In this document: positions 4,183-46,063 of the stretch, piece after piece
Layout of the letters: each line of letters begins with the position of its first letter
Position numbering within the stretch: the first letter of the stretch is position 1
Virus record (IMG/VR): IMGVR_UViG_3300021088_000005
Coordinates: 36,811 to 100,810 of that record
Source: a virus
DNA length: 64,000 bases
Strand: one strand, 5' to 3'
Position numbers and translations under genes: made by a program
The notes under the pieces: model-generated
Told to the model about the DNA's origin: nothing
What the model saw: only the letters and a program-made list of their open reading frames with translations
Databases searched by the model: none

Positions 4183-6375
4183 TTACAGCGGCTGTCCCGT
4201 CTGTTGACTATACTTCTTTCCTGTTGCGTCCTGAATCGAACCGTCAGACATCTTCCATACCGGAGTTCCGTTTGCAGCCTTTCCTGGGTTCGGGTTGACT
4301 GCGCCCTTAGGTGCTGCCGGAGTCTGATCTACTGGCTGACCTGCCATCTTAGCGAGAATATTACGCTGAGCATTCATAGTTGCCAGGTCCCCAGGCATGC
4401 GAGCCGCGTATTCCTTGCTTGGAGCACTCTCGTCCCATGTGTCCTTTAGGGTTCCAAACTTGTCCATCATAGACTGTGCCTGGGTTGTGATTGCTGCTTC
4501 GCGGCCTCCAGGAAGATTAGCTGCCAACGTAGATTTGATGTTGGCAATAGCCGGAACTGTACTATCTCCGTAGAATGCCGCCAATTCTGTTGACAAAGTG
4601 TCAATCTTGTTCATGTAGGCATTGTACGCAGGGGTTCCCGGAACGTGACTTGTGTTGGTGTTGAGTGCCATTGCTTCCTGCAAATGCTTCAACGCAGTGA
4701 CTCCGCTCTTAAGCTGATCTCCGGTCTTCCCAGAAGTGTACTTTGTGTAATTTTCCATATAACTCTTGATCTTGTCTGGTTCGAAATCCGGATATGCTCT
4801 TGTAACCGCGTTGATTACTTCTGGCTTACGCGATAGCAAGTAGCTCAAGTTATTAATAGGAGCCTTTCCTTGCCCGATCAAGTCCACTGTTGAGCGAGCC
4901 GCAGATGGCAAGCTAGCTCTAAATGCCTCTGGGGTTGTTGCGTTCTCGTCGCCCGCGAAGTCGCCGTTCTTAAGCTTGTCTGCCGCAGCCTTAGCATTTA
5001 TCTCCAAGACTTTGTTCTCTTCCTCTTGCTTATTGTGCCTCTCAACTTCGGTCTGCTTGCGATCTTCCTCTACCTTCTTCTCGTAGTTTTCCTTTGCAGC
5101 CGGGGTCAGTGCAGACATAGCTAAGTCAATCTTACGTGATGCGTCTTCCATCTGCTGTTTCTTCTGCTGCAATGCCTGGGTCACCGGATTCGGTTGTCCA
5201 GGTTGACTCGGGTTCTTCTTTTCTACAGCATCGATCATCTGATCTACCGCTGCTAGATGAGCGTCAGCGTTCTTACGTGCTTCGGTCAACCCGCCGACTG
5301 GATCGATGGCGATGTAGTGCTGAATCTGAGGATCGGTCAAAGCATCGTTAACTCTGCGAGACTGTTCCGCAGACATGTCTTCTTGGTTTGCTTTCTCCAT
5401 CCTAGTCTGAGCCGCCCGTACACCGTCGGCTTGTGATGATAGCGCGTCTAGCTCTGAGAAACTCAATGATGTGTTTGCTGGTATCTTCTTGCCTGTCCAT
5501 CTTGATAGATACTCGGCCTCGGCACTTGATATTGGCTGTCTCTTCTCGGTCATGTCAGTCTTAGAAATAGAATATGTCGGAGACATTACCGGATTTCCGT
5601 TCTTATCCACTGCTGGCTTGCCATCTTTGTAAACAGGCTGTTCTCCGGTAGGACGACCTGTGTGGGTCTTCCAGAAGTTTGGGTCTTTAGACAGCATGTC
5701 GTTTAACTGATCTTGGGTGACATCATCCTGATTGTTAGAAGTGTCGTACCTAGATCGCAGGTTCTTCATGAACGATGTGCCCTGGTCGTACTCGGTCTTT
5801 CTATCCTGCATGTCCTGACGGTACATGTTGCGGGTGTTCATTGCGATACGCTGAGTGGTTTCAGCACGTAGCAATTCCTGATTCTTCTCTTTCGAGATAG
5901 CTTCCTTCTCTTGAGCCTGACGCTGACCGCGTGCTTGTAGTGTTCTGGCAACTCCGGTCAGTGCTCCGCCGCCGTTCGGGGCGGGTTCTCCCGCAGCCGC
6001 AGCATCACTGATGCTGCCCATCATACCAGTCACTCCGGCTAGAACAGCCTTAGCCCATCCACCGGGCGCAGCAACCGCAGCCGGATTAGACTTAGCCGCA
6101 GCATCCATTCCCTGCGCCATCCTTGTAACAGCCGGAGACTTTACAGGTCGTAGGATGTTCTGTAGAGCCTGAACCCCAGGCAGGTCGCCTAAAGTAGCGC
6201 GGGTCTGGTCTTCGTCCTGGTTATCTTGGTCAGGTTGTTCCGCGTTCTGTGGTGCAGCTTGTAGCGCGGCGACCCCAGGGGCCATGGTCTGTCCGACCAT
6301 GCCTGCGGGAGTAGTATTTCCTAGAACGTCCGTGCTAGGAGAGCTAGGAAGTTGTCCTGGTACTATCTCTGTCAT
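4183..6375 (-). CDS. Internal virion/DNA ejection protein (730 aa)
   Basis: Helical, Q/A-rich, coiled-coil; lies between the small ejection protein and the giant protein, as in podoviruses. Confidence 0.6.
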   Translation of the reverse strand: MTEIVPGQLPSSPSTDVLGNTTPAGMVGQTMAPGVAALQAAPQNAEQPDQDNQDEDQTRATLGDLPGVQALQNILRPVKSPAVTRMAQGMDAAAKSNPAAVAAPGGWAKAVLAGVTGMMGSISDAAAAGEPAPNGGGALTGVARTLQARGQRQAQEKEAISKEKNQELLRAETTQRIAMNTRNMYRQDMQDRKTEYDQGTSFMKNLRSRYDTSNNQDDVTQDQLNDMLSKDPNFWKTHTGRPTGEQPVYKDGKPAVDKNGNPVMSPTYSISKTDMTEKRQPISSAEAEYLSRWTGKKIPANTSLSFSELDALSSQADGVRAAQTRMEKANQEDMSAEQSRRVNDALTDPQIQHYIAIDPVGGLTEARKNADAHLAAVDQMIDAVEKKNPSQPGQPNPVTQALQQKKQQMEDASRKIDLAMSALTPAAKENYEKKVEEDRKQTEVERHNKQEEENKVLEINAKAAADKLKNGDFAGDENATTPEAFRASLPSAARSTVDLIGQGKAPINNLSYLLSRKPEVINAVTRAYPDFEPDKIKSYMENYTKYTSGKTGDQLKSGVTALKHLQEAMALNTNTSHVPGTPAYNAYMNKIDTLSTELAAFYGDSTVPAIANIKSTLAANLPGGREAAITTQAQSMMDKFGTLKDTWDESAPSKEYAARMPGDLATMNAQRNILAKMAGQPVDQTPAAPKGAVNPNPGKAANGTPVWKMSDGSIQDATGKKYSQQTGQPL

Positions 6376-37190: not shown

Positions 37191-38948
37191 TTATGAGCCA
37201 CTTGCGACTCCGTTGTGATCCAGAATATAAACTACATTGCCGCTGTTAGGAACGACTACGTGAACGATGTCTAGCAATGACGGGTTTGTGAATGCATCAG
37301 CGAACAACTGAGCAATTGTTGCCCCGCTGGTTAGGCGTGTGAAATACTGGCCTAGTCTGACCCCATTCGACGGAGTGAAGGACGCAGCAATGGTGGCGGT
37401 AGCAGCATGAGTTTCTGCTGTCTGCGTGGTCTCGGCTACAACTATGGTTGTGGCCGTGCTTGAGATTACAAGAACACTCGATACATTGTTGCCGCTGCTA
37501 GTGAAACCAGTAACTGTTATGAAACGACCAGCAAGACCGTTGGACGCACCGTTCGTTATGGTTCCGGTATATGTGGCCTTGTTGACTCCGGAGATACGAA
37601 CAGTTGCCGCATGCGTTTCAGCCGCTTGGCCCACTATGAAGGTACCAACCAAGGTTGTTGCTGTTGACGCCGTGATAACAAAGCTTACGTTGTTGCCGGA
37701 TGTTGTAAATCCGGCTACTGTCGCAGTAAAACCTACAAATGCGTTAGAAGCACCGCCTGTGATCGTTCCGGTGTAGGTGGTAAGTGATACCCCGGCTATC
37801 TCGGCAGTCGCAGCGTGAGTTTCGTCAACCTGAGTGTTCGGGGTAACCGTGATGGTTGTCGCAGTTGATGCAGTAATAGTGAATGTGCCGTTATTTCCAC
37901 CGTTCACGAAACCAGCGATTACAACCTGCTTACCAGCAAATGCGTTAGAAGCACCACCAGTAAATGTTCCGGTGTAGACACCTGTTGAACCGACAACAGA
38001 TGTGATTGTGAATGACGAAATAGCAACAGAGGTTAGCGCGAAGTCGTCTACCGCGACAGAAGTTAGCGGAGATGTAAACAAAGAACTGGTTGAGACATTG
38101 TGAACTGTTCCGATATTGTCAACCGAAACCAGGATGTCTCCGCCCTCTCCTACAATCTGAAGCAGGTCTAGGTTCTGTGGGCCAACACCGTTAGGGGTAA
38201 CTTGAGGATACGCAGATGGTACGCTTAAGCCGGGCTGAGACGCAATTAGCGCCTGAGCCACTCCGCCAGCAGTTGTTGGGGTGGCTGCGGAAGCAGGGGC
38301 TGTGATGTTTGTAGCTGTCGCGATAGTAACCGCGCCGCTAGACGTGACCAATCCTGCGAGAGCACGGCCCTTCAGGGTGCCGCCTCCCAATGTGATGCTA
38401 GTGTTGGCAAGAATATTACCAACCATGTTAGAAGTACCAGCAAAGATTGAAGTGAAGGAACTTCCTACTAGCCAAACCACGTTTGCAGCCTTAGCGCCAT
38501 TCACAAGCAATACAGACGCACCACTCTCTAAAGTAAGTGTAGAGCCTGCCTTAAAAATAAAAACAGCATTAGGGTTTCCCTGCGCATCTAGGGTAATAGA
38601 TGTCGGGATGTCCATTGATGATCCAGCGGAGTAATTGCCGGGTAGGTATGTGCTAGCCGTCCCGCCATTTCCTAGAGTAGATAGGTTGGCTGAAGACGCA
38701 GACAAAGATGTGAAGGAAAGTGCGGAGAAAGCGTTATAAGCAGTGAGGCCGTCTGCAATAGCTTGCGCGGCGTTTGGGGTATCAACTGCGGCAGGAGGAA
38801 TAAAGATCATCCCGTCCAAAGTATATGTCGCGGTTGGTGACGACCCGACATTGCCACCTGTGATGATGCTAGAGCCTGAGTTAGTAATACCAGCGCCTGC
38901 TAGAATGACATAATTAGCGGCGGTCAACAACTGAGACTGAATAGACAT
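37191..38948 (-). CDS. DUF3494 ice-binding domain protein with C-terminal repeats
   Basis: TAANYVILAGAGITNSG...ITLDAQGNPNAVFIFKAGSTL...NVVWLVGSS...GRALA, then three YTGTxTxGASN...GF...GNN...ETHAAT modules; SD AGGAG before ATG 38948. Confidence 0.85.
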   Translation of the reverse strand: MSIQSQLLTAANYVILAGAGITNSGSSIITGGNVGSSPTATYTLDGMIFIPPAAVDTPNAAQAIADGLTAYNAFSALSFTSLSASSANLSTLGNGGTASTYLPGNYSAGSSMDIPTSITLDAQGNPNAVFIFKAGSTLTLESGASVLLVNGAKAANVVWLVGSSFTSIFAGTSNMVGNILANTSITLGGGTLKGRALAGLVTSSGAVTIATATNITAPASAATPTTAGGVAQALIASQPGLSVPSAYPQVTPNGVGPQNLDLLQIVGEGGDILVSVDNIGTVHNVSTSSLFTSPLTSVAVDDFALTSVAISSFTITSVVGSTGVYTGTFTGGASNAFAGKQVVIAGFVNGGNNGTFTITASTATTITVTPNTQVDETHAATAEIAGVSLTTYTGTITGGASNAFVGFTATVAGFTTSGNNVSFVITASTATTLVGTFIVGQAAETHAATVRISGVNKATYTGTITNGASNGLAGRFITVTGFTSSGNNVSSVLVISSTATTIVVAETTQTAETHAATATIAASFTPSNGVRLGQYFTRLTSGATIAQLFADAFTNPSLLDIVHVVVPNSGNVVYILDHNGVASGS

Positions 38949-38964
38949 GATGCTCCTGAAATAC

Positions 38965-38993
38965 AAAAGCCGCCCAATCTAGGCGGCTTCTTT
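38965..38993 (-). terminator. Terminator ending the RNA array (possibly bidirectional)
   Basis: AAGCCGCC/GGCGGCTT stem with T tracts on both strands. Confidence 0.7.
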
Positions 38994-39006: not shown

Positions 39007-39085
39007 TGGTCGGGAAGGTGGGATTCGGACCCACGTGCTTTCGCTTCCGAAGCGAACGAGATAAGCCAAACTCCTCTACTTCCCG
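39007..39085 (-). tRNA. tRNA-Pro(CGG)
   Basis: TTCGC-TTCGGAA-GCGAA; CCA encoded; T-loop TCCGAAT. Confidence 0.85.
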
Positions 39086-39091
39086 TAAAAT

Positions 39092-39165
39092 TGGTCGGGG
39101 AACTGAGAATCGGACTCAGACCCTACGCTCCCAAAGCGTATGTGCTGCCATAACACTTCTCCCCG
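39092..39165 (-). tRNA. tRNA-Pro(TGG)
   Basis: TACGC-TTTGGGA-GCGTA; A8/U14; T-loop TCCGATT. Confidence 0.85.
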
Positions 39166-39171
39166 ATAAAA

Positions 39172-39936
39172 CTAAAAGAACGAAATTGTTTCTGCTTTCT
39201 CTGGATTAGCCGCGATGAACTTATCGACTGTATTATCCTGTAAGTCATTCAAGAAATCTAGAACACGGTCCGCCGGAGTCACTATATCGTAAGTACCGGA
39301 ATGGAAATCACCGACTGCAATACCGATTAGCGCACGTTCCTTAGCGCTGTAGATTCCGCTTCCACTAGACCCAGGCGCGATAGTCACGTCCATGGGCATT
39401 GTGTGAATCCAAAACGGATACTGCTCAATTATCTCTAGCGGCATGGCTAGGAATGCGGAAGACATGAATCGACCGTAGAATACCTGCTTGCCTGTGCCGT
39501 ACGGGAACGAAACATCAAATATCGGGTCGCCGGACTTTAATCCGCGTTCGTCTTTGATTCGAACTTCCGGGACGCCAGCGCCGTTCCTGATTAGCATCAA
39601 AGCTACATCGTCTGTCAAACTAATCGCAATAGGCATCGCGTCATAGAACGGTCCGCCCTCGTTATCTGAGAAGCTGACCTTCATGCTCTGATTGACGACA
39701 TTCGTGTCCGGGTCTGCTACGCAATGGCGTGCTGTCAAGAAAACACCGTCACCTGTCGAAGTGTGGCCGATTTCTGTGCCGCTGCAATTGAACCTGCGCT
39801 CAGCGCCTACGAATATGGCTCCGGTTGCTGCCCGAGCATCAATCTCGAACGGGTGCCGTGGTGCTCCACTAATCGCTAAGCCTGAGCCTAGGGCGAGTAG
39901 AACGGCTAAAGAAATCACTGCTAGCAACTTCTTCAT
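39172..39936 (-). CDS. Secreted trypsin-like serine protease
   Basis: Signal peptide; CSG, FLTARHC, DDVAL, APGSSGSG triad motifs. Confidence 0.85.
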   Translation of the reverse strand: MKKLLAVISLAVLLALGSGLAISGAPRHPFEIDARAATGAIFVGAERRFNCSGTEIGHTSTGDGVFLTARHCVADPDTNVVNQSMKVSFSDNEGGPFYDAMPIAISLTDDVALMLIRNGAGVPEVRIKDERGLKSGDPIFDVSFPYGTGKQVFYGRFMSSAFLAMPLEIIEQYPFWIHTMPMDVTIAPGSSGSGIYSAKERALIGIAVGDFHSGTYDIVTPADRVLDFLNDLQDNTVDKFIAANPEKAETISFF

Positions 39937-39961
39937 AGACTACCAACTCATTCGCAATACT

Positions 39962-40018
39962 TGGCGGAGCACTTATGCGAATGCATGCCGTTCGCTTATT
40001 GGAGCGAGCCTCTGCTCG
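39962..40018 (-). ncRNA. CCA-terminated tRNA-like small RNA (about 57 nt)
   Basis: GAGCA/TGCTC stem, two inner hairpins, ends GCCA. Confidence 0.45.
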
Positions 40019-40029
40019 GCTTGTAAAAA

Positions 40030-40104
40030 TGGCTGCGAGACTAGGACTCGAACCTAGATGCGCGGCTTCAGAGACCGCTATCCTACCAATTAGATGATCT
40101 CGCA
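40030..40104 (-). tRNA. tRNA-Gln(CTG)
   Basis: GCGGT-CTCTGAA-GCCGC; U1-A72; CCA. Confidence 0.9.
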
Positions 40105-40112
40105 ATAAATTT

Positions 40113-40176
40113 TGGAGGGTAGCCATTTCGTTCCCGCTAGGGCGAAGGGGTCGTTATCACTAGGGCAGTACTACCC
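40113..40176 (-). ncRNA. CCA-terminated small RNA (64 nt)
   Basis: GGGTAG/CTACCC terminal stem plus TCCA; no cloverleaf. Confidence 0.45.
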
Positions 40177-40222
40177 TGCTGTTGTTCCCTAATTACCTGA
40201 CCAACGATTTCACAGATCGAAC

Positions 40223-40298
40223 TGGTTGCCTCGACACGACTCGAACGTGTATAGCGGGATTCAAAGTCCCGCGTCCTACCAAATTAGACGACAAGGCA
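40223..40298 (-). tRNA. tRNA-Gln(TTG)
   Basis: CGGGA-CTTTGAA-TCCCG; CCA. Confidence 0.9.
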
Positions 40299-40304
40299 AT
40301 AAAA

Positions 40305-40376
40305 TGGAGCGAACTACTTACGGATTCGAACCGTCATCCGGTTGGCCTTCCGGATTACACCCTAGTGCGTGTTCGC
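40305..40376 (-). ncRNA. Atypical tRNA-like RNA (8-nt anticodon loop, 5-nt bulge between T arm and acceptor stem)
   Basis: GCGAAC/GTTCGC-TCCA; ATCCGG-AAGGCCAA-CCGGAT; ACGG-TTCGAAT-CCGT-AAGTA. Confidence 0.6.
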
Positions 40377-40382
40377 ATAAAC

Positions 40383-40459
40383 TGGACCAGCAAGTCAGAC
40401 TCGAACTGACTAAGAACAAGGTTGCAGCTTGTCGCCTCGACCGCTTCGGCATTTGCTGG
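40383..40459 (-). tRNA. tRNA-Cys(GCA)
   Basis: ACAAG-CTGCAAC-CTTGT; U73; CCA. Confidence 0.88.
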
Positions 40460-40460
40460 T

Positions 40461-40494
40461 TGGTCGCGGAACCGCCGTGAAGCTAAGTCCCACG
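40461..40494 (-). ncRNA. 34-nt ACCA-terminated minihelix 1
   Basis: CGTGGGAC-TTAGCTTCACGGCG-GTTCCGCG-ACCA. Confidence 0.55.
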
Positions 40495-40496
40495 AT

Positions 40497-40530
40497 TGGT
40501 GCCCCGCCAGGATTGCTCCGAAGCTAGGGC
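40497..40530 (-). ncRNA. 34-nt ACCA-terminated minihelix 2
   Basis: GCCCT-AGCTTC-GGA-GCAA-TCC-TGGC-GGGGC-ACCA. Confidence 0.55.
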
Positions 40531-40535
40531 ATAAA

Positions 40536-40622
40536 TGGCGGATGATGAAGGAATCGAACCCTCTTCACCTTTCGGTGAGGACAGTTTTCAAGACTGCTGC
40601 CCCCCATGGAGCCCAATCATCC
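40536..40622 (-). tRNA. tRNA-Ser(TGA)
   Basis: GCAGT-CTTGAAA-ACTGT; long variable arm; G73; short D arm. Confidence 0.82.
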
Positions 40623-40629
40623 GTAAAAA

Positions 40630-41145
40630 TTAAGTATGAAACACTGTAATCGGCAACCAAGCAACATGGATATCTACTTCAGTCCCGTTGACTGGTGCGG
40701 AACAAGTTGCGCTAACTCCTAGTCCGAATAGAGAAGACTGAACCGTGCTCCACAAAGACAATGGGTTAATTCCCCATAGATCAGTCGAACTACCAAGAGT
40801 ATAAAACTGTGGCTCGTTAGTTAAAGTAACATGTTTTCCGGTTCCGATTGGGTTGCCGTTCAAAGACATGGCAACATACAACTGACCGCTTCCGCCACCT
40901 GGCGAAGCATAGTACGCCCAGAATCCACCTTCAAGACCTGTTACACTCTGCTGCTCAGCTAATGTAAATCCGTATCGCTGACCGAAGACTGCTACCCCTG
41001 TGTTCTGACTACCGCCACTGAACTCTTTGTTCTGAGCGTAATCGCCTGGGGGCGATCCTACGAGACCACCGATATTAGTCCAGAGTACTTCATTACCGTT
41101 TGCGTACTGTACCGAATAGCCTGCGTATGCGCTTTCACTTGCCAT
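40630..41145 (-). CDS. Beta-rich hypothetical protein inside the RNA array
   Basis: SD GGAGG; YTLGSSTDLWG motif. Confidence 0.65.
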   Translation of the reverse strand: MASESAYAGYSVQYANGNEVLWTNIGGLVGSPPGDYAQNKEFSGGSQNTGVAVFGQRYGFTLAEQQSVTGLEGGFWAYYASPGGGSGQLYVAMSLNGNPIGTGKHVTLTNEPQFYTLGSSTDLWGINPLSLWSTVQSSLFGLGVSATCSAPVNGTEVDIHVAWLPITVFHT

Positions 41146-41174
41146 CTAGCCTCCGGCAATGCTAGTTAAAAATT

Positions 41175-41256
41175 TGGCGGAGAACCCCTTGCTAAGACTC
41201 CATGTCGCGTTTCCGCTGCAAGGTCCGCTGAAGCGTGTACCTGTTTAAGGTTCCCC
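41175..41256 (-). ncRNA. CCA-terminated branched RNA (82 nt) with G3-U70
   Basis: GGGGAACC/GGTTCTCC-GCCA; inner GCG-GAAA-CGC hairpin. Confidence 0.5.
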
Positions 41257-41279
41257 GGTCTTTCGACGGTTCTAATGTT

Positions 41280-41365
41280 TGGCGGAGAAGGAGGGACTTG
41301 AACCCCCACATCCTTTCGGATGCGAGTTTAGCAAACTCGTGCGTCTACCATTTCGCCACTTCTCC
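41280..41365 (-). tRNA. tRNA-Ser(GCT)
   Basis: CGAGT-TTGCTAA-ACTCG; long variable arm; CCA. Confidence 0.92.
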
Positions 41366-41374
41366 GTATTCAAC

Positions 41375-41666
41375 TGGTGACCAATAGCCAGGGTTCTGTC
41401 CAGCGCTTTCACGCTTGAACTGTCATTCGTCTTCGCTTCCAACCCGACCTTCGTCACGCTCAACAAGCGCTCTGGTCCTATTTGGAATTGCACCTACAGA
41501 GAGTCACTTCGCTCGAATGACCTATATGACGGTTGTTAAGTTTCTAATCGACCGCTATATGGGTACGAAGCCTTACTAGTCCGGTTACCCGGCCCGCAAC
41601 TTCCACGGTGTAGTGTTGAGATGTGCCCTGAACTTCCTCGGTTTCCCGCGACAGTTTAGGTCACCA
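41375..41666 (-). ncRNA. rnpB: RNase P RNA (type A-like, no P18, divergent S-domain)
   Basis: CR-I GAGGAAGTTCAGGGCAC and CR-V ACAGAACCCTGGCTA form P4 with bulged U; P1 TGGTGACC/GGTCACCA; P2 ACTGTCG/TGACAGT; P3; P5 GCAC/GTGC; P6 CTCAACA/TGTTGAG; P7 CTACA/TGTAG; P15 TTCC/GGAA; CR-IV AGACGAAT; P19. Confidence 0.9.
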
Positions 41667-41675
41667 AACTAAAAC

Positions 41676-41752
41676 TGGACGACCTGACTGGACTCGAACC
41701 AGCAAACATTTGTTTAGGAAACAAAGCCCCGATCCTTTCGGGGAACAGGTCG
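41676..41752 (-). tRNA. tRNA-Arg(CCT)
   Basis: TTTGT-TTCCTAA-ACAAA; CCA. Confidence 0.85.
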
Positions 41753-41756
41753 AAAC

Positions 41757-41831
41757 TGGAAGGCCGTAACGGAATCCAACCGTTGTCTCCCCGTTAGAAG
41801 CGGGGCGCATTTTGCACTATACTAACAGCCC
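41757..41831 (-). tRNA. tRNA-Arg(TCT)
   Basis: CCCCG-CTTCTAA-CGGGG; C19-G56. Confidence 0.85.
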
Positions 41832-41837
41832 ATAAAT

Positions 41838-41912
41838 TGGCAGGGGAAGAGAGATTCGAACTCCCATAACTGGTTTTGGAGACCAGAGTCCTAGCCGTTG
41901 GACGACTCCCCT
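41838..41912 (-). tRNA. tRNA-Trp(CCA)
   Basis: CTGGT-CTCCAAA-ACCAG; G73. Confidence 0.92.
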
Positions 41913-41917
41913 ATAAA

Positions 41918-42035
41918 CCTTTCCGATGTCACTTTCTCAGATCGCAGGCGCGTGACTGGCCGTGTCACAGTCCTTTGGGCTCGCGTGATCTGCTACGTTA
42001 GGCGATCATCGGTGCTAGTTTTCAAGGCTAGCAGG
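41918..42035 (-). ncRNA. Unknown structured RNA between tRNAs
   Basis: GCTAG/CTAGC, CCGATG/CATCGG, CAGATC/GATCTG, GTGAC/GTCAC stems. Confidence 0.45.
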
Positions 42036-42039
42036 AACT

Positions 42040-42113
42040 TGGAGCGACTGACGTGACTCGGACACGTTTCTCTGGATTGGAAGTCCAGGGCACAACCTAT
42101 ATACCACAGTCGC
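42040..42113 (-). tRNA. tRNA-Gly(TCC)
   Basis: CTGGA-CTTCCAA-TCCAG; U73; T-loop TCCGAGT. Confidence 0.88.
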
Positions 42114-42119
42114 AAAACT

Positions 42120-42194
42120 TGGAGCGGCTGACGGGAAATCGAACCCGTACCTGAACCTTGGCAAGGTTCCGTACTACCACTATACTACAGCCGC
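42120..42194 (-). tRNA. tRNA-Gly(GCC)
   Basis: GAACC-TTGCCAA-GGTTC; 8-nt T-loop. Confidence 0.9.
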
Positions 42195-42195
42195 A

Positions 42196-42271
42196 TGGTC
42201 GCTGTGGCTGGATTCGAACCAGCTATACCCGCCTTATGAGAGCGGTGCTTTTCCGGTTAAGCTACACAGCG
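42196..42271 (-). tRNA. tRNA(CAT), elongator Met or Ile2
   Basis: CCGCT-CTCATAA-GGCGG; paired 1-72. Confidence 0.85.
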
Positions 42272-42277
42272 TAAAAT

Positions 42278-42350
42278 TGGTTGCAGGGGTAGGAGTCGAA
42301 CCTACGTAAGCAAGTTTATGAGGCTTGCCTGAATCCCATTCTCCTCTGCA
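42278..42350 (-). tRNA. tRNA(CAT), possibly initiator-like, reduced D arm
   Basis: CTCATAA loop; TGCAG/CTGCA-ACCA; D arm GAAT-GGG-ATTC. Confidence 0.7.
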
Positions 42351-42358
42351 CAGAAATT

Positions 42359-42442
42359 TGGTGCGCGATGAGGGATTTGAACCCCCACGAGTTTCCCCAA
42401 TAGTTTCTAAGACTATCGTGTCTGCCGTTCCACCAATCGCGC
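42359..42442 (-). tRNA. tRNA-Leu(TAG)
   Basis: ATAGT-CTTAGAA-ACTAT; long variable arm. Confidence 0.92.
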
Positions 42443-42448
42443 AAAACT

Positions 42449-42524
42449 TGGTAGGGATGGAGAGATTCAAACTCTCGTCACTTGGCTTGAAGGGCCAGTA
42501 TCATTATCGCTAGACCACATCCCC
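42449..42524 (-). tRNA. tRNA-Glu(TTC)
   Basis: TGGC-CCTTCAA-GCCA; C33; A19-U56. Confidence 0.8.
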
Positions 42525-42530
42525 AAAACT

Positions 42531-42604
42531 TGGTCGCGCTGCGGGGAATCGGACCCCGGTTACACGGATGAGAACCGTGTGGCTTGCCACTAACCGACAA
42601 CGCG
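42531..42604 (-). tRNA. tRNA-Glu(CTC)
   Basis: CACGG-TTCTCAT-CCGTG; T-loop TCCGATT. Confidence 0.85.
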
Positions 42605-42605
42605 A

Positions 42606-42680
42606 TGGCGGAGATACCGGGGATCGGACCCGGACTTTACCCGTGACAGGGGTACGTCGTTACCAACTGACCCTATCTCC
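42606..42680 (-). tRNA. tRNA-Asp(GTC)
   Basis: TACCC-CTGTCAC-GGGTA; G73; T-loop TCCGATC. Confidence 0.85.
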
Positions 42681-42681
42681 G

Positions 42682-42755
42682 TGGAGCACCATAAAGGAAT
42701 CTAACCTTTTCTTCCGCTTTACCAAAGCGGTGGACTAACAATATCCTAATAGTGC
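42682..42755 (-). tRNA. tRNA-Thr(GGT)
   Basis: CCGCT-TTGGTAA-AGCGG; U19-A56. Confidence 0.85.
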
Positions 42756-42760
42756 GAAAC

Positions 42761-42834
42761 TGGAGCAGCGTCTGAGAATCGGACTCAGGCCAGCGGTTTA
42801 CGAAACCGCGATCATACCACTAGACCAACGCTGC
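42761..42834 (-). tRNA. tRNA-Thr(CGT)
   Basis: GCGGT-TTCGTAA-ACCGC; T-loop TCCGATT. Confidence 0.87.
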
Positions 42835-42839
42835 AAAAC

Positions 42840-42914
42840 TGGAGCACAATCGAGGAATCCAACCTCGGCTTCCGAGGTACAAGCTCGGCGTCATAGGCGC
42901 TAGACCAATCGTGC
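42840..42914 (-). tRNA. tRNA-Thr(TGT)
   Basis: CCGAG-CTTGTAC-CTCGG; C19-G56. Confidence 0.85.
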
Positions 42915-42920
42915 TTACAA

Positions 42921-43009
42921 AGGCTGGGGCAGCAGGATTCGAACCTGCAATGTGCTTACGCACTGTCTGGGTAACGGCCAGATGCTGTACCGGATTGAGC
43001 CACACCCCA
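42921..43009 (-). tRNA. tRNA-Asn(GTT) with long variable arm
   Basis: TCTGG-CCGTTAC-CCAGA; GTGC-GTAA-GCAC variable hairpin; G73; ends CCT. Confidence 0.78.
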
Positions 43010-43489
43010 ATAAAGTCTATCTTCTTCCTCTGCGTGGCAGTTAGCGCAGAGTAAATCACACTTATCTAATTCTAATTCTAATTTTACTTTTTCCCAGGCT
43101 ACAGTTTCTGGGCGCGATATAGCAAATTCTTTTTCTCCAGGTTCTCTATGATGAAATTGTAGTGCTCTTACACACTTACAGTACCCGCACTTCATGCACT
43201 TCCTGCCGAGATATTCAACAGCTCTCTGCTTTATATCTCTACGCCAGTCCATGACTCTTTTACTTACCGCTTTTCTCTTACGGTTAGCGGACTGTTCTTT
43301 CTTTATATTTCTGCACTCATCACTACAATAACTTAATACTGTCCGAATTGCCTTACCGCAAATCTTACAAGACCCTTCTGGTTTCCTCTTAGGAAAACGA
43401 TTGATATTGTTGTTCGCAGAATTGGCACACGTCTTAGAACAATATTTAGGATTGTCTGTGAGTACACCACATCCGTTACATGGGTGCAT
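42956..43489 (-). CDS. HNH endonuclease with Zn-finger repeats, 3' end overlaps tRNA-Asn
   Basis: CMKCGY...ALQFHH...KCDLLCANCHAEE. Confidence 0.88.
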   Translation of the reverse strand: MHPCNGCGVLTDNPKYCSKTCANSANNNINRFPKRKPEGSCKICGKAIRTVLSYCSDECRNIKKEQSANRKRKAVSKRVMDWRRDIKQRAVEYLGRKCMKCGYCKCVRALQFHHREPGEKEFAISRPETVAWEKVKLELELDKCDLLCANCHAEEEDRLYWGVAQSGTASGRYPDSA

Positions 43490-43522
43490 TCTAGTCTCCT
43501 AGTTTTAACTTCTAAACAAAAA

Positions 43523-43598
43523 TGGAGACCCTGGAGAGATTCCAACTCCCGACGCCCACGTTCGAAGCGTGGCGCTCTGTGCGCTGAGCTACAGGGTC
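43523..43598 (-). tRNA. tRNA-Arg(TCG)
   Basis: CCACG-CTTCGAA-CGTGG; C19-G56; A20. Confidence 0.87.
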
Positions 43599-43608
43599 AA
43601 ACTAATCA

Positions 43609-43764
43609 TCAGCGAGGAAACCTACGAATCAACTCCAACTGATGTGTTTCATCTTGGTACCAAACATGAGTGTCCATGTACTTCTTAGAATACCAAAGCA
43701 TAATAGGTAACGGGACCAACCAATAAATCCAAGGTCTCCATGACCAATATATTTTACTCTTCAT
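43609..43764 (-). CDS. Small Trp-rich membrane peptide
   Basis: MKSKIYWSWRPWIYWLVPLPIMLWY; ATG 3 nt after a tRNA CCA, no SD. Confidence 0.4.
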   Translation of the reverse strand: MKSKIYWSWRPWIYWLVPLPIMLWYSKKYMDTHVWYQDETHQLELIRRFPR

Positions 43765-43767
43765 ATC

Positions 43768-43843
43768 TGGTGATCCTATGTGGACTCGAACCACAGCATC
43801 GAGCTTCGCAGGCTCGCACTCTTTCCATCTGAGTTATAGGACC
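43768..43843 (-). tRNA. tRNA-Arg(GCG)
   Basis: CGAGC-CTGCGAA-GCTCG; A20. Confidence 0.88.
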
Positions 43844-43912
43844 ATAAACTTTTAGGGTTACGATCCCTCAACGGCTGCTTATTTCCGGTCTACAGCAAGA
43901 CGATCATTAAAC

Positions 43913-43987
43913 TGGTACGCCGCCGAGGAGTTGAACCTCGCTCTTCCGGGTGTAAACCGGGTGCATCTGCCGATCTGCCAGCAGCGT
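43913..43987 (-). tRNA. tRNA-Val(TAC)
   Basis: CCGG-TTTACAC-CCGG; A73. Confidence 0.85.
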
Positions 43988-43988
43988 A

Positions 43989-44052
43989 TGGTGGAGTCGG
44001 TGTGCCACGGTATCCCGGAAGGTTCTACCTTCTGTAGGTCTTGCCGTGCTCC
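43989..44052 (-). ncRNA. CCA-terminated small RNA (64 nt)
   Basis: GGAG/CTCC-ACCA, CACGG/CCGTG, GAAGGT/ACCTTC. Confidence 0.45.
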
Positions 44053-44138
44053 ATAATGTCCGGCGCGGATTGCATGTTGCTCCGCGTCGTCCGATGTGTC
44101 AGATAGTTCGTTGTATACTATCTCACACATCGTAAAAT

Positions 44139-44212
44139 TGGTGTAGGCGAAGGGAATCGAACCCTCAAATTCTCGGTGCAAGCGAGACAGTTTCCCGTTA
44201 GCTTACGCCCAC
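44139..44212 (-). tRNA. tRNA-Ala(TGC)
   Basis: TCTCG-CTTGCAC-CGAGA; G3-U70; A73. Confidence 0.9.
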
Positions 44213-44219
44213 ATAAAAT

Positions 44220-44293
44220 TGGTAGTCGGCCAGTGACTCGAACACTGATCTCACGTTAATCGGACGCGGGTCCTACCTTTGAACGAGCCGACT
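44220..44293 (-). tRNA. tRNA-Ile(GAT)
   Basis: CGCGT-CCGATTA-ACGTG; unusual C33 and U37. Confidence 0.78.
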
Positions 44294-44411
44294 ATAAACT
44301 TTACCGCTACACTTCTTCATATGAAACCAAAGAGCATCAGCCGGATTTATCTTGGCTGTTATCTCTTGCCCACATTTACTGCATCGAAGTACGCGTAGCT
44401 TTGACATAAAC

Positions 44412-44500
44412 TGGTGGAGAAGGAGTGAATCGAACACTCTACGTCTCAAGGACGGTTGGTTTTACAGACCAATGCGACTCTCCAACTTCGCCGCTTCTCC
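44412..44500 (-). tRNA. tRNA-Tyr(GTA)
   Basis: TTGGT-CTGTAAA-ACCAA; long variable arm. Confidence 0.9.
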
Positions 44501-44506
44501 AAAACT

Positions 44507-44582
44507 TGGTGGGACATGACGGGCTCGAACCGTCAACCGACTCCTTAAAAGGGAGCTATGTTGCCACTAACACCTATGTCCC
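44507..44582 (-). tRNA. tRNA-Lys(TTT)
   Basis: GCTCC-CTTTTAA-GGAGT; A8/U14. Confidence 0.88.
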
Positions 44583-44588
44583 GAAACT

Positions 44589-44663
44589 TGGTGCGCCTCC
44601 CGTGAATTAAACACGGTCCCGACGGGTTAAGAGCCCGCTGTGCTATCGTAACACCTGAAGCGC
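44589..44663 (-). tRNA. tRNA-Lys(CTT)
   Basis: GCGGG-CTCTTAA-CCCGT; A8/U14; A19-U56. Confidence 0.85.
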
Positions 44664-44673
44664 AAAACTTAAT

Positions 44674-44770
44674 AACCTGTGGAGGAATCGAACCTCTACT
44701 GACATTAGCGCGTAGACGTTATCGGTCAGCAAGCACCCGAGGTATCTACGTACCCGCCGTGCTCACGGTC
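44674..44770 (-). ncRNA. tRNA-shaped RNA with kissing loops, no CCA
   Basis: T arm GAGG-TTCGATT-CCTC; loops CGTAGA and TCTACG complementary. Confidence 0.55.
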
Positions 44771-44771
44771 T

Positions 44772-44858
44772 TGGTGCGCTGCCCCGGATTTGAACCGGGA
44801 CGGGGTTTAGTCCAGCGGGTTTTAAGTCCGCTATGTCTGCCTGTTCCATCAGCAGCGC
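44772..44858 (-). tRNA. tRNA-Leu(TAA)
   Basis: GCGG-ACTTAAAAC-CCGC; long variable arm. Confidence 0.9.
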
Positions 44859-44867
44859 AAAATCATA

Positions 44868-44936
44868 GATGGCGTCCTATCCGTTAGACGATACACGCCG
44901 ATAGCATGCACCGGGACTCGAACCCGGATTTCCACC
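44868..44936 (-). ncRNA. Circularly permuted, anticodon-less tRNA (YrlA Y-RNA-like)
   Basis: Order: GGTGG, AAAT, T arm, TGCATGC, TATCG loop, GCGTGTA, D arm, CCATC. Confidence 0.8.
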
Positions 44937-44941
44937 TTACT

Positions 44942-45035
44942 TGGTAGTCTCGAAGAGATTCGAACTCTTATCGCGCCCCAATCTAGGGCTTATCCAGTTT
45001 ATAAGGCTGGCGCTCTGCCGTTGAGCTACGAGACT
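44942..45035 (-). tRNA. tRNA-Ile(TAT) with long variable arm
   Basis: CCAG-CCTTATAAA-CTGG; GCCCT-AGATT-GGGGC variable hairpin; A73. Confidence 0.82.
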
Positions 45036-45041
45036 AAAATC

Positions 45042-45136
45042 TTGAACCTTCCCGAGCTTTACTAGCGTGACACTCGGTCTTGATTAACAAGTCGTGCCTT
45101 CCACGCTAGCGGTTGCACGATCAATGAACGGTTCAA
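45042..45136 (-). ncRNA. Unknown multi-stem RNA with 8-bp kissing loops
   Basis: TTGAACC/GGTTCAA; TCGTGC/GCACGA; CCGAG/CTCGG; loops CTAGCGTG/CACGCTAG. Confidence 0.6.
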
Positions 45137-45142
45137 ACTTGA

Positions 45143-45229
45143 TTCGGGACCCGGCATCAACCTTCCCAGGAAGTGCCACGTCGGTTAGAAGCTTGACACT
45201 TACTACCAACGTCGTCAAGGTTTCCCGAA
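45143..45229 (-). ncRNA. Unknown pseudoknotted RNA
   Basis: TTCGGGA/TCCCGAA; CTTGAC/GTCAAG; ACGTTGGT/ACCGACGT; GGCA/TGCC; CTTCC/GGAAG. Confidence 0.55.
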
Positions 45230-45232
45230 AAC

Positions 45233-45317
45233 TGGTGCGACAGAGGGGAGTTGAACCCCTATGAGACAAGCTCGGCGGTTTTTGAGACCGCTGCGTATGC
45301 CATTCCGCCACTATCGC
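45233..45317 (-). tRNA. tRNA-Leu(CAA)
   Basis: GCGGT-CTCAAAA-ACCGC; long variable arm. Confidence 0.92.
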
Positions 45318-45385
45318 ATAATCTTTAGGGCTCTTAGCCCAAGGTAAGACTTCATCCATGTAGGAGAAGCTTTCTTACCTAAACT

Positions 45386-45460
45386 TGGTCCGGACTCACG
45401 GAATTGAACCGCGTACGCCCACCTCTTCAGGGTGGCGCTCTACCGATGAGCTAAGCCCGG
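45386..45460 (-). tRNA. tRNA-Phe(GAA)
   Basis: CCACC-CTGAAGA-GGTGG. Confidence 0.9.
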
Positions 45461-45468
45461 ATAAAATA

Positions 45469-45639
45469 GTATTCATCGTGACAAACGTCTTAAGCCGGAT
45501 GCCTTCGTCACAACGGGTGACCAGCCATATAGAGTTCACGCCCCACCGGGGAATGACTCTAGTCTAAGCAAACTCACCAGATTGGCCTGCGCAAGCCTTA
45601 GCATCTCTCCGGCAAGAAGCAAGTCTCGATTACAAATAC
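45469..45639 (-). ncRNA. 6S RNA-like rod (about 170 nt)
   Basis: End-to-end hairpin ATCG/CGAT, GAC/GTC, TCTT/AAGA, GCCGGA/TCCGGC, central bubble, GGTGA/TCACC, TAGAGT/ACTCTA, CCCC/GGGG. Confidence 0.5.
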
Positions 45640-45668
45640 ATTGTACCACAACTTTCGAATCTTGTCAA
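45640..45668 (-). promoter_or_regulatory. Sigma70-type promoter for the RNA array
   Basis: TTGACA-17 nt-TACAAT with extended TG. Confidence 0.85.
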
Positions 45669-45987
45669 GCGATTTCTTCGACCATCTCAAGAAATATTTC
45701 CATCGCTTCGATCATTCTGCTGCGCCCAAACTCGTCAGCCAGGACATAAACCTCAGCGTCGGACATCTTGCTTGTTATGACTACGCCGTCTTCCAGGGAT
45801 GTCCACACCATCGGTTCCTCCACCCGCCTGGGGGTTGGACCCGGCGGACAGAATCTAATCCAGTGGCGGAGAAAGGATCGTAACCGCTACGCCGGACGCT
45901 CTTATGAGCACACTGGAAACTTTGGGTGGCTGATTGCGCTCTGACAGCCGAAGTTTCAGCGTATGTTTCAGCGTATGTTTCTAATTT

Positions 45988-46063
45988 TGGGGTGTCCCGC
46001 CGGAATCGGACCGAGCGCTACAGGATTCACAGTCCCGTGTGCTTCCATTACACCACGGACACC
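45988..46063 (-). tRNA. tRNA-His(GTG)
   Basis: CGGGA-CTGTGAA-TCCTG; G-1:C73; T-loop TCCGATT. Confidence 0.85.

What the first reader, a model, noticed from the sequence alone, without database searches (positions are those of the whole stretch)
39962..44052. Four more non-cloverleaf RNAs with acceptor-like stems and NCCA ends
Seen: 39962-40018, 40113-40176, 41175-41256 and 43989-44052 each sit like a tRNA gene, have paired ends followed by NCCA, and contain hairpins but no T-loop. The 41175-41256 element has G1-C72, G2-C71 and G3-U70. Known: G3-U70 is the AlaRS identity element. Inference: a diversified family of acceptor-stem mimics; intact terminal stems around unrelated interiors fit poorly with simple pseudogene decay.
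Basis: partly seen in the sequence, partly recalled or inferred. Interest (0 to 1): 0.7.

Follow-up and report, generated by a model that had tools for sequence, protein, structure and literature searches.

The report
Structured spacer RNAs in phage tRNA array
Of four supposed tRNA-end mimics in a soil phage's tRNA gene array, two are parts of real, conserved, folded non-coding RNAs of unknown job, one is a piece of a conserved gene leader, and one cannot be told from chance.

Summary
The window is part of a 100.8-kb soil phage. Its minus strand carries about 36 tRNA genes and an RNase P RNA (39007-46062).

The four elements are four unrelated things.

- **E3 (41175-41256):** the core of a conserved RNA of about 105 nt (41169-41272). 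It occurs in 4 of about 30 related phages. Eleven of its 22 base pairs show compensatory changes, five of them in the 7-bp terminal stem.
- **E2 (40113-40176):** part of a 118-nt RNA between the two tRNA-Gln genes, with five distinct versions. Its acceptor-like stem is an extra helix seen only in this phage and one relative, with two compensatory changes.
- **E1 (39962-40018):** wrongly delimited. Its "NCCA" lies in the conserved loop of a covarying hairpin in a gene leader shared by eight phages.
- **E4 (43989-44052):** only a 4-bp terminal stem and no relative anywhere.

None resembles a tRNA by sequence or fold. The encoded NCCA is not conserved (E3: 2 of 4 copies; E2: UACA in the relative). 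G3:U70 occurs only in this phage, so the alanine-identity reading fails.

Most likely E2 and E3 are co-transcribed with the tRNAs and cut out by tRNA-processing enzymes, as is thought for T4 RNAC and RNAD. That step is inferred, and their function is unknown. This scan has noted similar tRNA-framed RNAs on other phage DNA.

The parts
41169..41272 (-). E3-family RNA: a small upstream GAAA-loop hairpin plus the core 41175-41256. The core has P1 (41249-41256 with 41179-41186), P2 (a short hairpin, much longer in two relatives), P3 (41218-41223 with 41187-41192), P3a (GAAA loop) and P3b. P3 directly abuts the 3' strand of P1. The tail is G-CCA (41175-41178).
   Evidence: Covariance model R1 scores it at 111 bits and finds homologues in L164, L019 and L049 only. 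In alignment A4, 11 of 22 pairs change on both sides, 98.9% of cells are paired and 0 of 500 shuffles reach this. An RNA-library contig identical to 41122-41272 exists; this is weak evidence.
40105..40222 (-). Spacer RNA between tRNA-Gln(UUG) and tRNA-Gln(CUG). The family scaffold is H1 (TCGTT/AACGA), H2 (GGTC/GACC), H3 ((A)TTAGGG/CCCTAG(T)) and H4 (CCC/GGG).
   Evidence: Alignment A8 holds 5 distinct sequences. 98.2% of cells are paired, 6 of 7 H3 pairs are compensatory, and 0 of 500 shuffles reach this. The spacer is 93% identical to G002, higher than the neighbouring tRNAs.
40113..40176 (-). Its 7-bp acceptor-like helix (40170-40176 with 40117-40123) pairs the enlarged H3 loop with a 3' extension, followed by U-CCA. 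With the scaffold it forms a pseudoknot, or else an alternative fold. It exists only in this phage and G002.
   Evidence: There are 7 differences from G002 in 64 nt. Four of them make two compensatory pairs (G-C to A-U, A-U to G-C), and CCA becomes ACA. The helix and the 3' extension are absent in L178, L180 and L181.
39937..40020 (-). Conserved 5' leader of the trypsin-like protease gene (ATG at 39936). It has box A GARCAGAGG (40009-40017), hairpin 1, and hairpin 2 (stem 39976-39981 with 39951-39956, and a 19-nt conserved loop at 39957-39975).
   Evidence: Alignment A9 covers 8 phages. All 6 pairs of the hairpin-2 stem change on both sides, 93.8% of cells are paired, and 0 of 500 shuffles reach this. 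The GCCA of E1 (39962-39965) lies inside the loop. Five of the 8 phages have no CCA there.
43989..44052 (-). E4: an orphan 64-nt hairpin-rich stretch 1 nt upstream of tRNA-Val. It is preceded by CATTAT, which resembles the leaders of the tRNAs in this array. Its terminal pairing is only 4 bp, followed by A-CCA.
   Evidence: Fold z-score is -1.8. No homologue was found in 3.1 Mb of related loci by blastn or nhmmer. The tRNA-Ala to tRNA-Val spacer is 7-9 nt in L164, L018 and L019. Leader motif.
44053..44132 (-). Two-hairpin module just upstream of E4. It is a separate sporadic spacer element.
   Evidence: A homologue lies in L018 between tRNA-Glu and tRNA-Leu, with compensatory changes at the top of hairpin A.
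41370..41667 (-). Phage RNase P RNA (class A-like). This is context: the likely 5' processing activity for the array.
   Evidence: Rfam RF00010 gives 72.7 bits here and 76-132 bits in 23 related IMG/VR records.

Best explanation
The four elements are not one family of acceptor-stem mimics.

E3 and E2 belong to two unrelated families of small structured non-coding RNAs. These families sit in the spacers of the tRNA array in some members of a group of soil phages. Each has a terminal helix whose 3' strand runs straight on from a 3'-proximal hairpin. In E3 that gives 8 + 6 bp in this phage. This copies the acceptor/T-arm stack that RNase P, RNase Z and the CCA-adding enzyme recognise.

I infer that both RNAs are transcribed with the tRNAs as one precursor. 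I further infer that tRNA-processing enzymes, including the phage's own RNase P RNA, cut them out as stable small RNAs. Where CCA is not encoded it could be added afterwards. What they do next is unknown. Their conserved single strands and loops would be the working parts.

E1 is a fragment of a conserved leader upstream of the first protein gene after tRNA-Gln(CUG). E4 is an orphan that cannot be told from chance or from a decayed slot.

Shown: the structures, the covariation, the sporadic distribution, and the lack of conservation of NCCA and G3:U70 (about 0.85 confidence). Inferred: co-transcription, cleavage by RNase P, and stability (about 0.4 confidence). The overall figure of 0.55 blends the two.
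For: - E3: 4 homologues. 11 of 22 pairs are compensatory, 5 of them among the 7 P1 pairs.
- E3 lies between tRNA-Ser(GCU) and tRNA-Ser(UGA) in three phages, but between tRNA-Thr and tRNA-Asp in L164.
- E2 spacer family: 5 distinct sequences with a covarying scaffold.
- The acceptor-like helix of E2 has 2 compensatory pairs among only 7 differences.
- In both families the 3' hairpin is contiguous with the 3' strand of the terminal helix (structures).
- Almost all tRNAs in these arrays encode CCA, followed by A/U-rich trailers. E2 and E3 have the same kind of trailer.
- RNase P RNA is conserved in all relatives.
- GNRA tetraloops point to RNA-level rather than DNA-level folding.
- There is no Rfam family match at E<=10 and no tRNA similarity.
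- E1: loop placement and covarying stem.
- A soil RNA-library contig is identical to 41122-41272. This is weak, since DNA carry-over is not excluded.
- Precedent: T4 RNAC and RNAD are small RNAs from the T4 tRNA region with unknown roles (PMC3014915). RNase P has non-tRNA substrates, among them phage regulatory RNAs (PMC4919922).
Against: - No RNA ends are known. Only assembled contigs of RNA libraries were available.
- The 5' ends of E2 and E3 lack the RTTTAT-type leader seen before the tRNAs. E3 is preceded by a hairpin only 1-3 nt away.
- The encoded CCA is missing in half of the E3 copies and in the G002 copy of E2.
- Most members of the E2 spacer family have no acceptor-like helix at all.
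- In this phage that helix must form a pseudoknot with the scaffold or compete with it.
- There are few homologues (4 and 5), and all are related phages.
- As a class, non-cloverleaf stems followed by NCCA are not enriched over controls.
- CCA near spacer 3' ends is only a trend: 5 of 14 against 2.5 expected, P = 0.08.
Confidence: 0.55

Rival explanations
1. The spacer RNAs act only in cis. They would be folded punctuation that guides or blocks RNase E, RNase P or exonuclease cuts, and so sets the yield of neighbouring tRNAs or of the downstream mRNA. They would not be released as working RNAs.
For: They sit between tRNAs. In this phage E3 precedes an inserted ORF (40630-41145), and E1 precedes a protein gene. 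Presence is sporadic, so they are dispensable. Most members of the E2 family end in a U-rich run directly before the next tRNA.
Against: The long unpaired stretches and loops are conserved in sequence: UUAAAYAGNUA in E3, and AGGUA and the CGCCC-UAGN-GGG hairpin in the E2 family. That is more than a simple processing signal needs. In L019, L164 and G002, E3 is followed by a tRNA, not an ORF.
Confidence: 0.25
2. They are degenerate tRNA genes. Old duplicates would have kept the acceptor helix while their interiors decayed.
For: The helix order of E3 (terminal stem, small arm, short link, arm abutting the 3' strand) echoes that of a tRNA. Its acceptor sequence resembles that of the adjacent tRNA-Ser(GCU): GGAGAAG/CUUCUCC-G-CCA against GGGGAAC/GUUCUCC-G-CCA (read). 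E4 occupies a tRNA-like slot with a tRNA-like leader. Relatives hold many odd tRNAs that ARAGORN misses.
Against: Local alignment scores against about 220 tRNAs are within the shuffle range for all four. Nothing is detected as an armless tRNA. Compensatory changes in the interior helices (P2, P3, P3a, P3b, H3) show selection on the non-tRNA fold. The roughly 85-nt elements at the E3 position in G1, L018, L017, L020 and L021 are intact type-II tRNA-Ser genes, not E3 relatives.
Confidence: 0.1
3. They are aminoacylatable acceptor-stem mimics. In particular, E3 would be an alanine-accepting minihelix through G3:U70.
For: In this phage E3 has G3-U70 in a stem followed by NCCA. Minihelices with G3:U70 are known AlaRS substrates (established knowledge).
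Against: The pair is G-C in L019 and L164 and A-U in G002. The discriminator is G or U, whereas the phage's tRNA-Ala has A73. Two of the four copies encode no CCA.
Confidence: 0.03
4. The elements are DNA-level mobile cassettes. Their folded single strands would be recognised by a recombinase or homing enzyme, and the RNA would be irrelevant.
For: Presence is sporadic. E3 and the two-hairpin module each occur at two different inter-tRNA positions. HNH-type ORFs lie in the arrays.
Against: All copies are on the tRNA strand. The folds are branched junctions with GNRA loops. G-U pairs are tolerated on this strand only, for example G3-U in E3 and U-G in E2 and H3. No target-site duplications were noticed by eye; no formal search was made.
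Confidence: 0.07

Closest known systems
Phage T4 RNAC and RNAD (species 1 and 2 RNAs) from the T4 tRNA region
   Same: Small non-tRNA RNAs encoded among phage tRNA genes and transcribed with them, with biological roles unknown (PMC3014915). From my own knowledge, not checked here: they have paired ends and are matured by tRNA-processing enzymes.
   Different: No sequence relation was found: blastn against 50,697 phage records matched only tRNAs. The E3 and Gln-spacer folds are new. No expression or processing data exist here.
Non-tRNA substrates of bacterial RNase P (precursor of 4.5S RNA, tmRNA, C4 antisense RNA of phages P1 and P7)
   Same: A helix with a 3' tail that copies the acceptor/T-arm stack is enough for recognition (PMC4919922). 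E3 in this phage offers 8 + 6 stacked pairs plus GCCA.
   Different: Cleavage was not tested. Half of the E3 copies encode no CCA. The leaders are structured.
tRNA (Rfam RF00005) and tRNA pseudogenes
   Same: Position in a tRNA array, a terminal 7-8 bp helix, NCCA in this phage, and an A/U-rich trailer.
   Different: No cloverleaf, T-loop, D-loop or anticodon loop. No model hit at E<=10. No sequence similarity.
Large ncRNAs found next to tRNA genes in phages and prophages (GOLLD, ROOL) and YrlA Y-RNA-like tRNA mimics
   Same: Structured ncRNAs of unknown or partly known function that ride in phage-derived tRNA clusters. GOLLD inside a 32-tRNA cluster is described in PMC6582537.
   Different: Those are much larger, or in the case of YrlA keep a true T-loop/D-loop elbow. 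There is no Rfam match here beyond a 18.8-bit chance hit to YrlA elsewhere in the array.

Membership tests
tRNA (RF00005) | Cloverleaf with T-loop and anticodon loop, scoring at or above 29 bits against the Rfam model | tested here: not met
   No hit at E<=10 on any of the four. ARAGORN in standard, relaxed and mitochondrial modes finds nothing on the right strand.
tRNA remnant or pseudogene | Alignable to a normal tRNA of the same or sister arrays | tested here: not met
   Best local scores of 24-27.5 against about 220 tRNAs are within the shuffle maxima of 23.6-25.1 +/- 2-3.
AlaRS minihelix substrate | G3:U70 conserved in the acceptor helix, with a 3' NCCA (A73 usual) | tested here: not met
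   G-U only in this phage; G-C, G-C and A-U in the three homologues. The discriminator is G or U, and CCA is absent in two copies.
RNase P minihelix-type substrate | Coaxial helix of about 12 bp ending in a single-stranded 3' RCCA | tested here: inconclusive
   E3 has P1 + P3 = 14 bp with GCCA here and U-CCA in G002, but 13 bp with GAGCA in L019 and L164. In E2 the helix plus UCCA occurs here only.
RNase P minihelix-type substrate | Cleavage by RNase P at the 5' base of the helix | not testable with these tools
   Needs an in vitro assay or RNA 5'-end mapping. Only contigs of RNA libraries were available.
T4 RNAC/RNAD-type stable RNAs of phage tRNA regions | Encoded inside a phage tRNA cluster on the tRNA strand | tested here: met
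T4 RNAC/RNAD-type stable RNAs of phage tRNA regions | Accumulates as a discrete stable RNA | not testable with these tools
   One identical 151-nt RNA-library contig over E3 does not show ends or stability.
Any Rfam 15 family | Match to a curated covariance model | tested here: not met
   Nothing at E<=10 over 39900-40222, 41146-41279 or 43988-44138.

The most novel reading that the evidence does not exclude
The E3 RNA and the Gln-spacer RNA are trans-acting phage small RNAs. They would be made through the tRNA-maturation route, perhaps with help from a phage RNase P RNA whose substrate rules are relaxed. They would be gained, lost and moved between spacers as independent RNA cassettes. The array would then be a mixed RNA operon rather than a set of tRNAs with junk between them.
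Probability: 0.25. Interest if true: 0.7.

Novelty: new variant of a known kind. Interest (0 to 1): 0.45.

Why it matters
Phage tRNA clusters are usually read as tRNAs plus spacer. Here at least three spacer elements are under clear selection for RNA structure: the E3 RNA, the Gln-Gln spacer RNA and the leader hairpin. None matches any Rfam family.

This adds new RNA motifs to the small and poorly understood class of non-tRNA RNAs carried in phage tRNA arrays. T4 RNAC and RNAD in that class have had no known role for decades. The arrays also offer natural test substrates for a phage-encoded RNase P RNA.

The result removes a more exciting but unsupported claim, that these are alanine-accepting mimics. 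It also shows that a stem followed by NCCA is not evidence on its own.

Tried and rejected
- **Phage records:** megablast of 39900-44400 against phage records gave no match. The distant mode matched only tRNAs.
- **Small ORFs as anchors:** the 171-aa and 254-aa ORFs found no related loci.
- **Metagenome scan:** the scan with the ice-binding-like protein returned one short true relative and otherwise bacterial domain hits.
- **E2 core pattern:** the genome-contig scan gave six chance hits without the family context.
- **tRNA-Val pattern to reach E4 relatives:** only G012 and two unrelated phages were found, and none has E4.
- **E4 homology:** blastn-short and nhmmer of E4 against 3.1 Mb of loci found nothing.
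- **Further E3 copies:** covariance model R1 found no E3 copy beyond its four training sequences in 477 kb.
- **Elements after tRNA-Ser(GCU):** I first took the roughly 85-nt elements in G1, L018, L017, L020 and L021 for E3 homologues. They are type-II tRNA-Ser(UGA/CGA) genes that ARAGORN missed.
- **E3 and tRNA-Ser(GCU):** the D-loop resemblance I saw by eye is not significant.
- **Class-level enrichment:** non-cloverleaf stems followed by NCCA are not enriched.
- **CCA in spacers:** CCA is not enriched overall (22 observed, 26 expected). Near spacer 3' ends it is only a trend (P = 0.08).
- **Promoter and terminator scan:** at chance level.
- **Processing enzymes:** no CCA-adding enzyme and no RNase P protein is encoded in the phage record.
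- **RNA libraries:** the RNA-library contigs laid on the stretch gave no cover over E1 or E4 and only marginal cover over E2. This says nothing either way.
- **Earlier notes of this scan:** look-ups by sequence found no look-alikes of E3 or the E2 spacer on other DNA.

Full report
**Setting**

The window is bases 36811-100810 of a 100,810-bp IMG/VR virus record. It has a terminase and a portal.

On the minus strand, 39007-46062 holds 33 tRNA genes by ARAGORN. Rfam adds three more (42452-42524, 44592-44663 and a weak one at 42281-42350). Rfam also finds a class-A RNase P-like RNA at 41370-41667 (72.7 bits). All four elements of the finding lie on this strand.

**Relatives**

No close relative exists among 50,697 phage records. 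IMG/VR relatives were reached in four ways:
- through the terminase;
- through the ice-binding-like protein next to the array;
- through a pattern from E3;
- through a pattern from the RNase P RNA.

That gave about 30 arrays with the same general gene order. Twenty-three further records carry the RNase P RNA at 76-132 bits. Nearly every tRNA in these arrays encodes CCA.

**Is a stem plus NCCA more than chance?**

It is not, taken alone. In 112 kb of spacer from 27 arrays, a 7-bp stem followed by NCCA occurs 63 times on the tRNA strand. The opposite strand has 37, and shuffles have 26.5 +/- 4.5.

Twenty-nine of the 62 in a repeat scan are cloverleaf-like tRNAs with odd T-loops that ARAGORN missed. 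The remaining 33 match the controls of 35 and 27. With stems of only 4-5 bp, as in E1 and E4, a partner is expected near almost any CCA.

CCA is not enriched in this phage's spacers. Its clustering near spacer 3' ends is only a trend (P = 0.08).

**E3 (41175-41256)**

The description is correct. It has an 8-bp stem with G3-U, then G-CCA (z -2.3).

At first sight every relative has an element of about 85 nt in the same place. In G1, L018, L017, L020 and L021 these are simply type-II tRNA-Ser(UGA/CGA) genes.

True homologues exist in three phages:
- L019, between tRNA-Ser(GCU) and tRNA-Ser(UGA);
- G002, in the same position;
- L164 (= G012), between tRNA-Thr(GGU) and tRNA-Asp.

A covariance model built from the four finds no others in 477 kb.

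The shared fold has these parts:
- a small GAAA-loop hairpin just upstream;
- P1 (7 bp, 8 in this phage and G002);
- a conserved single strand UUAAAYAGNUA;
- P2, short here and long in L019 and G002;
- P3 (6 bp), which carries P3a (GNRA loop) and P3b.

The 3' strand of P3 runs directly into the 3' strand of P1. Eleven of the 22 pairs change on both sides, five of them among the seven P1 pairs. 98.9% of cells are paired and 0 of 500 shuffles reach this.

The 3' tails are G-CCA (this phage), U-CCA (G002) and GAGCA (L019 and L164). The G-U pair is G-C, G-C and A-U in the other three copies. The phage's own tRNA-Ala has G3:U70 with A73. E3 is therefore a real RNA, but neither the alanine identity element nor the encoded CCA defines it.

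**E2 (40113-40176)**

The 7-bp stem plus U-CCA is there. The whole 118-nt spacer between the two tRNA-Gln genes is 93% identical in G002, which is more than the flanking tRNAs.

Of the 7 differences within E2, four form two compensatory pairs in the stem, and CCA becomes ACA.

A pattern from the conserved core found three more versions in the same spacer of other phages: L178/L179, L180 and L181/L182. In G1, L018, L019, L025 and L164 the spacer is only 7-8 nt.

The five distinct sequences share a scaffold of H1, H2, H3 and H4. H3 has 6 of 7 pairs compensatory, and overall 98.2% of cells are paired with 0 of 500 shuffles reaching this.

Both exist only in this phage and G002. With the scaffold this makes a pseudoknot, or else an alternative fold. 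The other members end in a U-rich run before the next tRNA. E2 is thus a lineage-specific addition to a conserved spacer RNA.

**E1 (39962-40018)**

Only GAGCA/UGCUC can pair, and two nucleotides precede CCA.

The same motifs recur once per genome in eight phages, about 20-30 nt before a start codon. The alignment shows three parts:
- box A, GARCAGAGG;
- a variable first hairpin;
- a second hairpin whose 6-bp stem changes on both sides at all six pairs (93.8% paired, 0 of 500 shuffles), and whose 19-nt loop is conserved.

Five of the eight phages have no CCA there. E1 is a fragment of a gene leader, either an operator or a processing signal.

**E4 (43989-44052)**

Only 4 bp close it. It has no homologue. 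tRNA-Ala and tRNA-Val are 7-9 nt apart in L164, L018 and L019.

In its favour, it is preceded by CATTAT, like the RTTTAT leaders of the tRNAs, and it ends 1 nt before tRNA-Val. The two hairpins upstream of it (44053-44132) are a separate module, with a homologue in L018 between tRNA-Glu and tRNA-Leu. E4 stays undecided between chance, a decayed slot and a private RNA.

**tRNA descent**

None of the four aligns with any of about 220 tRNAs above shuffle level. None is seen as an armless tRNA. The helix order of E3 echoes that of a tRNA, so remote descent cannot be excluded. Its present fold, however, is under selection as such.

**Expression**

Three soil RNA libraries hold contigs identical to parts of the array: the RNase P RNA, the 171-aa ORF, several tRNAs, and 41122-41272, which includes E3. 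These are contigs, and DNA carry-over is possible. This is only a hint.

**Mechanism**

What is shown is structure under selection, on the tRNA strand, in dispensable and movable spacer units.

From the acceptor/T-like stacking, the tRNA-type trailers and the RNase P RNA in every relative, I infer co-transcription and excision by tRNA-processing enzymes. Phage precedents point the same way: T4 RNAC and RNAD (PMC3014915) and the non-tRNA RNase P substrates (PMC4919922). For that step I give about 0.4. The phage encodes no CCA-adding enzyme and no RNase P protein, so host factors would be needed.

**Relation to other notes of this scan**

Other agents have reported tRNA-framed, non-decoding RNAs in phage tRNA arrays on other DNA. 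No look-alike of E3 or of the E2 spacer was on record.

Noticed in passing
window 41370-41667 (-); 23 IMG/VR records (G003-G025): A shortened class-A RNase P RNA lies inside the tRNA array. It is conserved in every relative found (76-132 bits, 7 above Rfam's cut-off). No RNase P protein gene is in this phage record.
   Followed up: partly
window 39937-40020 (-): A conserved leader motif, one copy per genome in eight phages. It has box A GARCAGAGG, a variable hairpin, and a hairpin with a fully covarying stem and a 19-nt conserved loop containing UGCUCUG, about 20 nt before a start codon. The loop is partly complementary to box A (CAGAG with CUCUG).
   Followed up: partly
window 44053-44132 (-); L018 cluster position 4406-4495: A two-hairpin spacer module occurs between tRNA-Ala and E4 here, but between tRNA-Glu and tRNA-Leu in L018. 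There are compensatory changes at the top of the first hairpin.
   Followed up: partly
window 41947-41986 (-) and 43873-43912 (-): The core of the tRNA-Trp to tRNA-Gly spacer is 89-92% identical in L161, L158 and L165/L174. Forty nt after tRNA-Val are 100% identical in L164. These may be further conserved spacer elements.
   Followed up: no
window 40305-40376 (-): A tRNA-like gene with a canonical T arm (GGTTCGAATCC), a 6-bp acceptor and U-CCA, but an 8-nt AAGGCCAA loop where the anticodon loop should be. ARAGORN and Rfam both miss it. G002 has an 84-nt spacer in the same place with no detectable similarity.
   Followed up: no
L016, L017, L018, L020, L021 after tRNA-Ser(GCU); many loci: Relatives carry type-II tRNA-Ser(UGA/CGA), tRNA-Glu and other tRNAs with unusual T-loops (for example GGGTCAGTACC) that ARAGORN does not call. 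tRNA counts for this phage group are therefore underestimates.
   Followed up: partly
window 39007-46062 (-): Spacers end in RTTTAT or ATTTT directly before each tRNA 5' end, and CCA is followed by A(A/G/T)TTT. This looks like a shared leader/trailer signal across the array.
   Followed up: no
window 37191-38966 (-): A 591-aa protein with an ice-binding-like (DUF3494) domain lies directly downstream of the array. It is conserved at 62-68% identity in relatives and served as the anchor for finding them.
   Followed up: no
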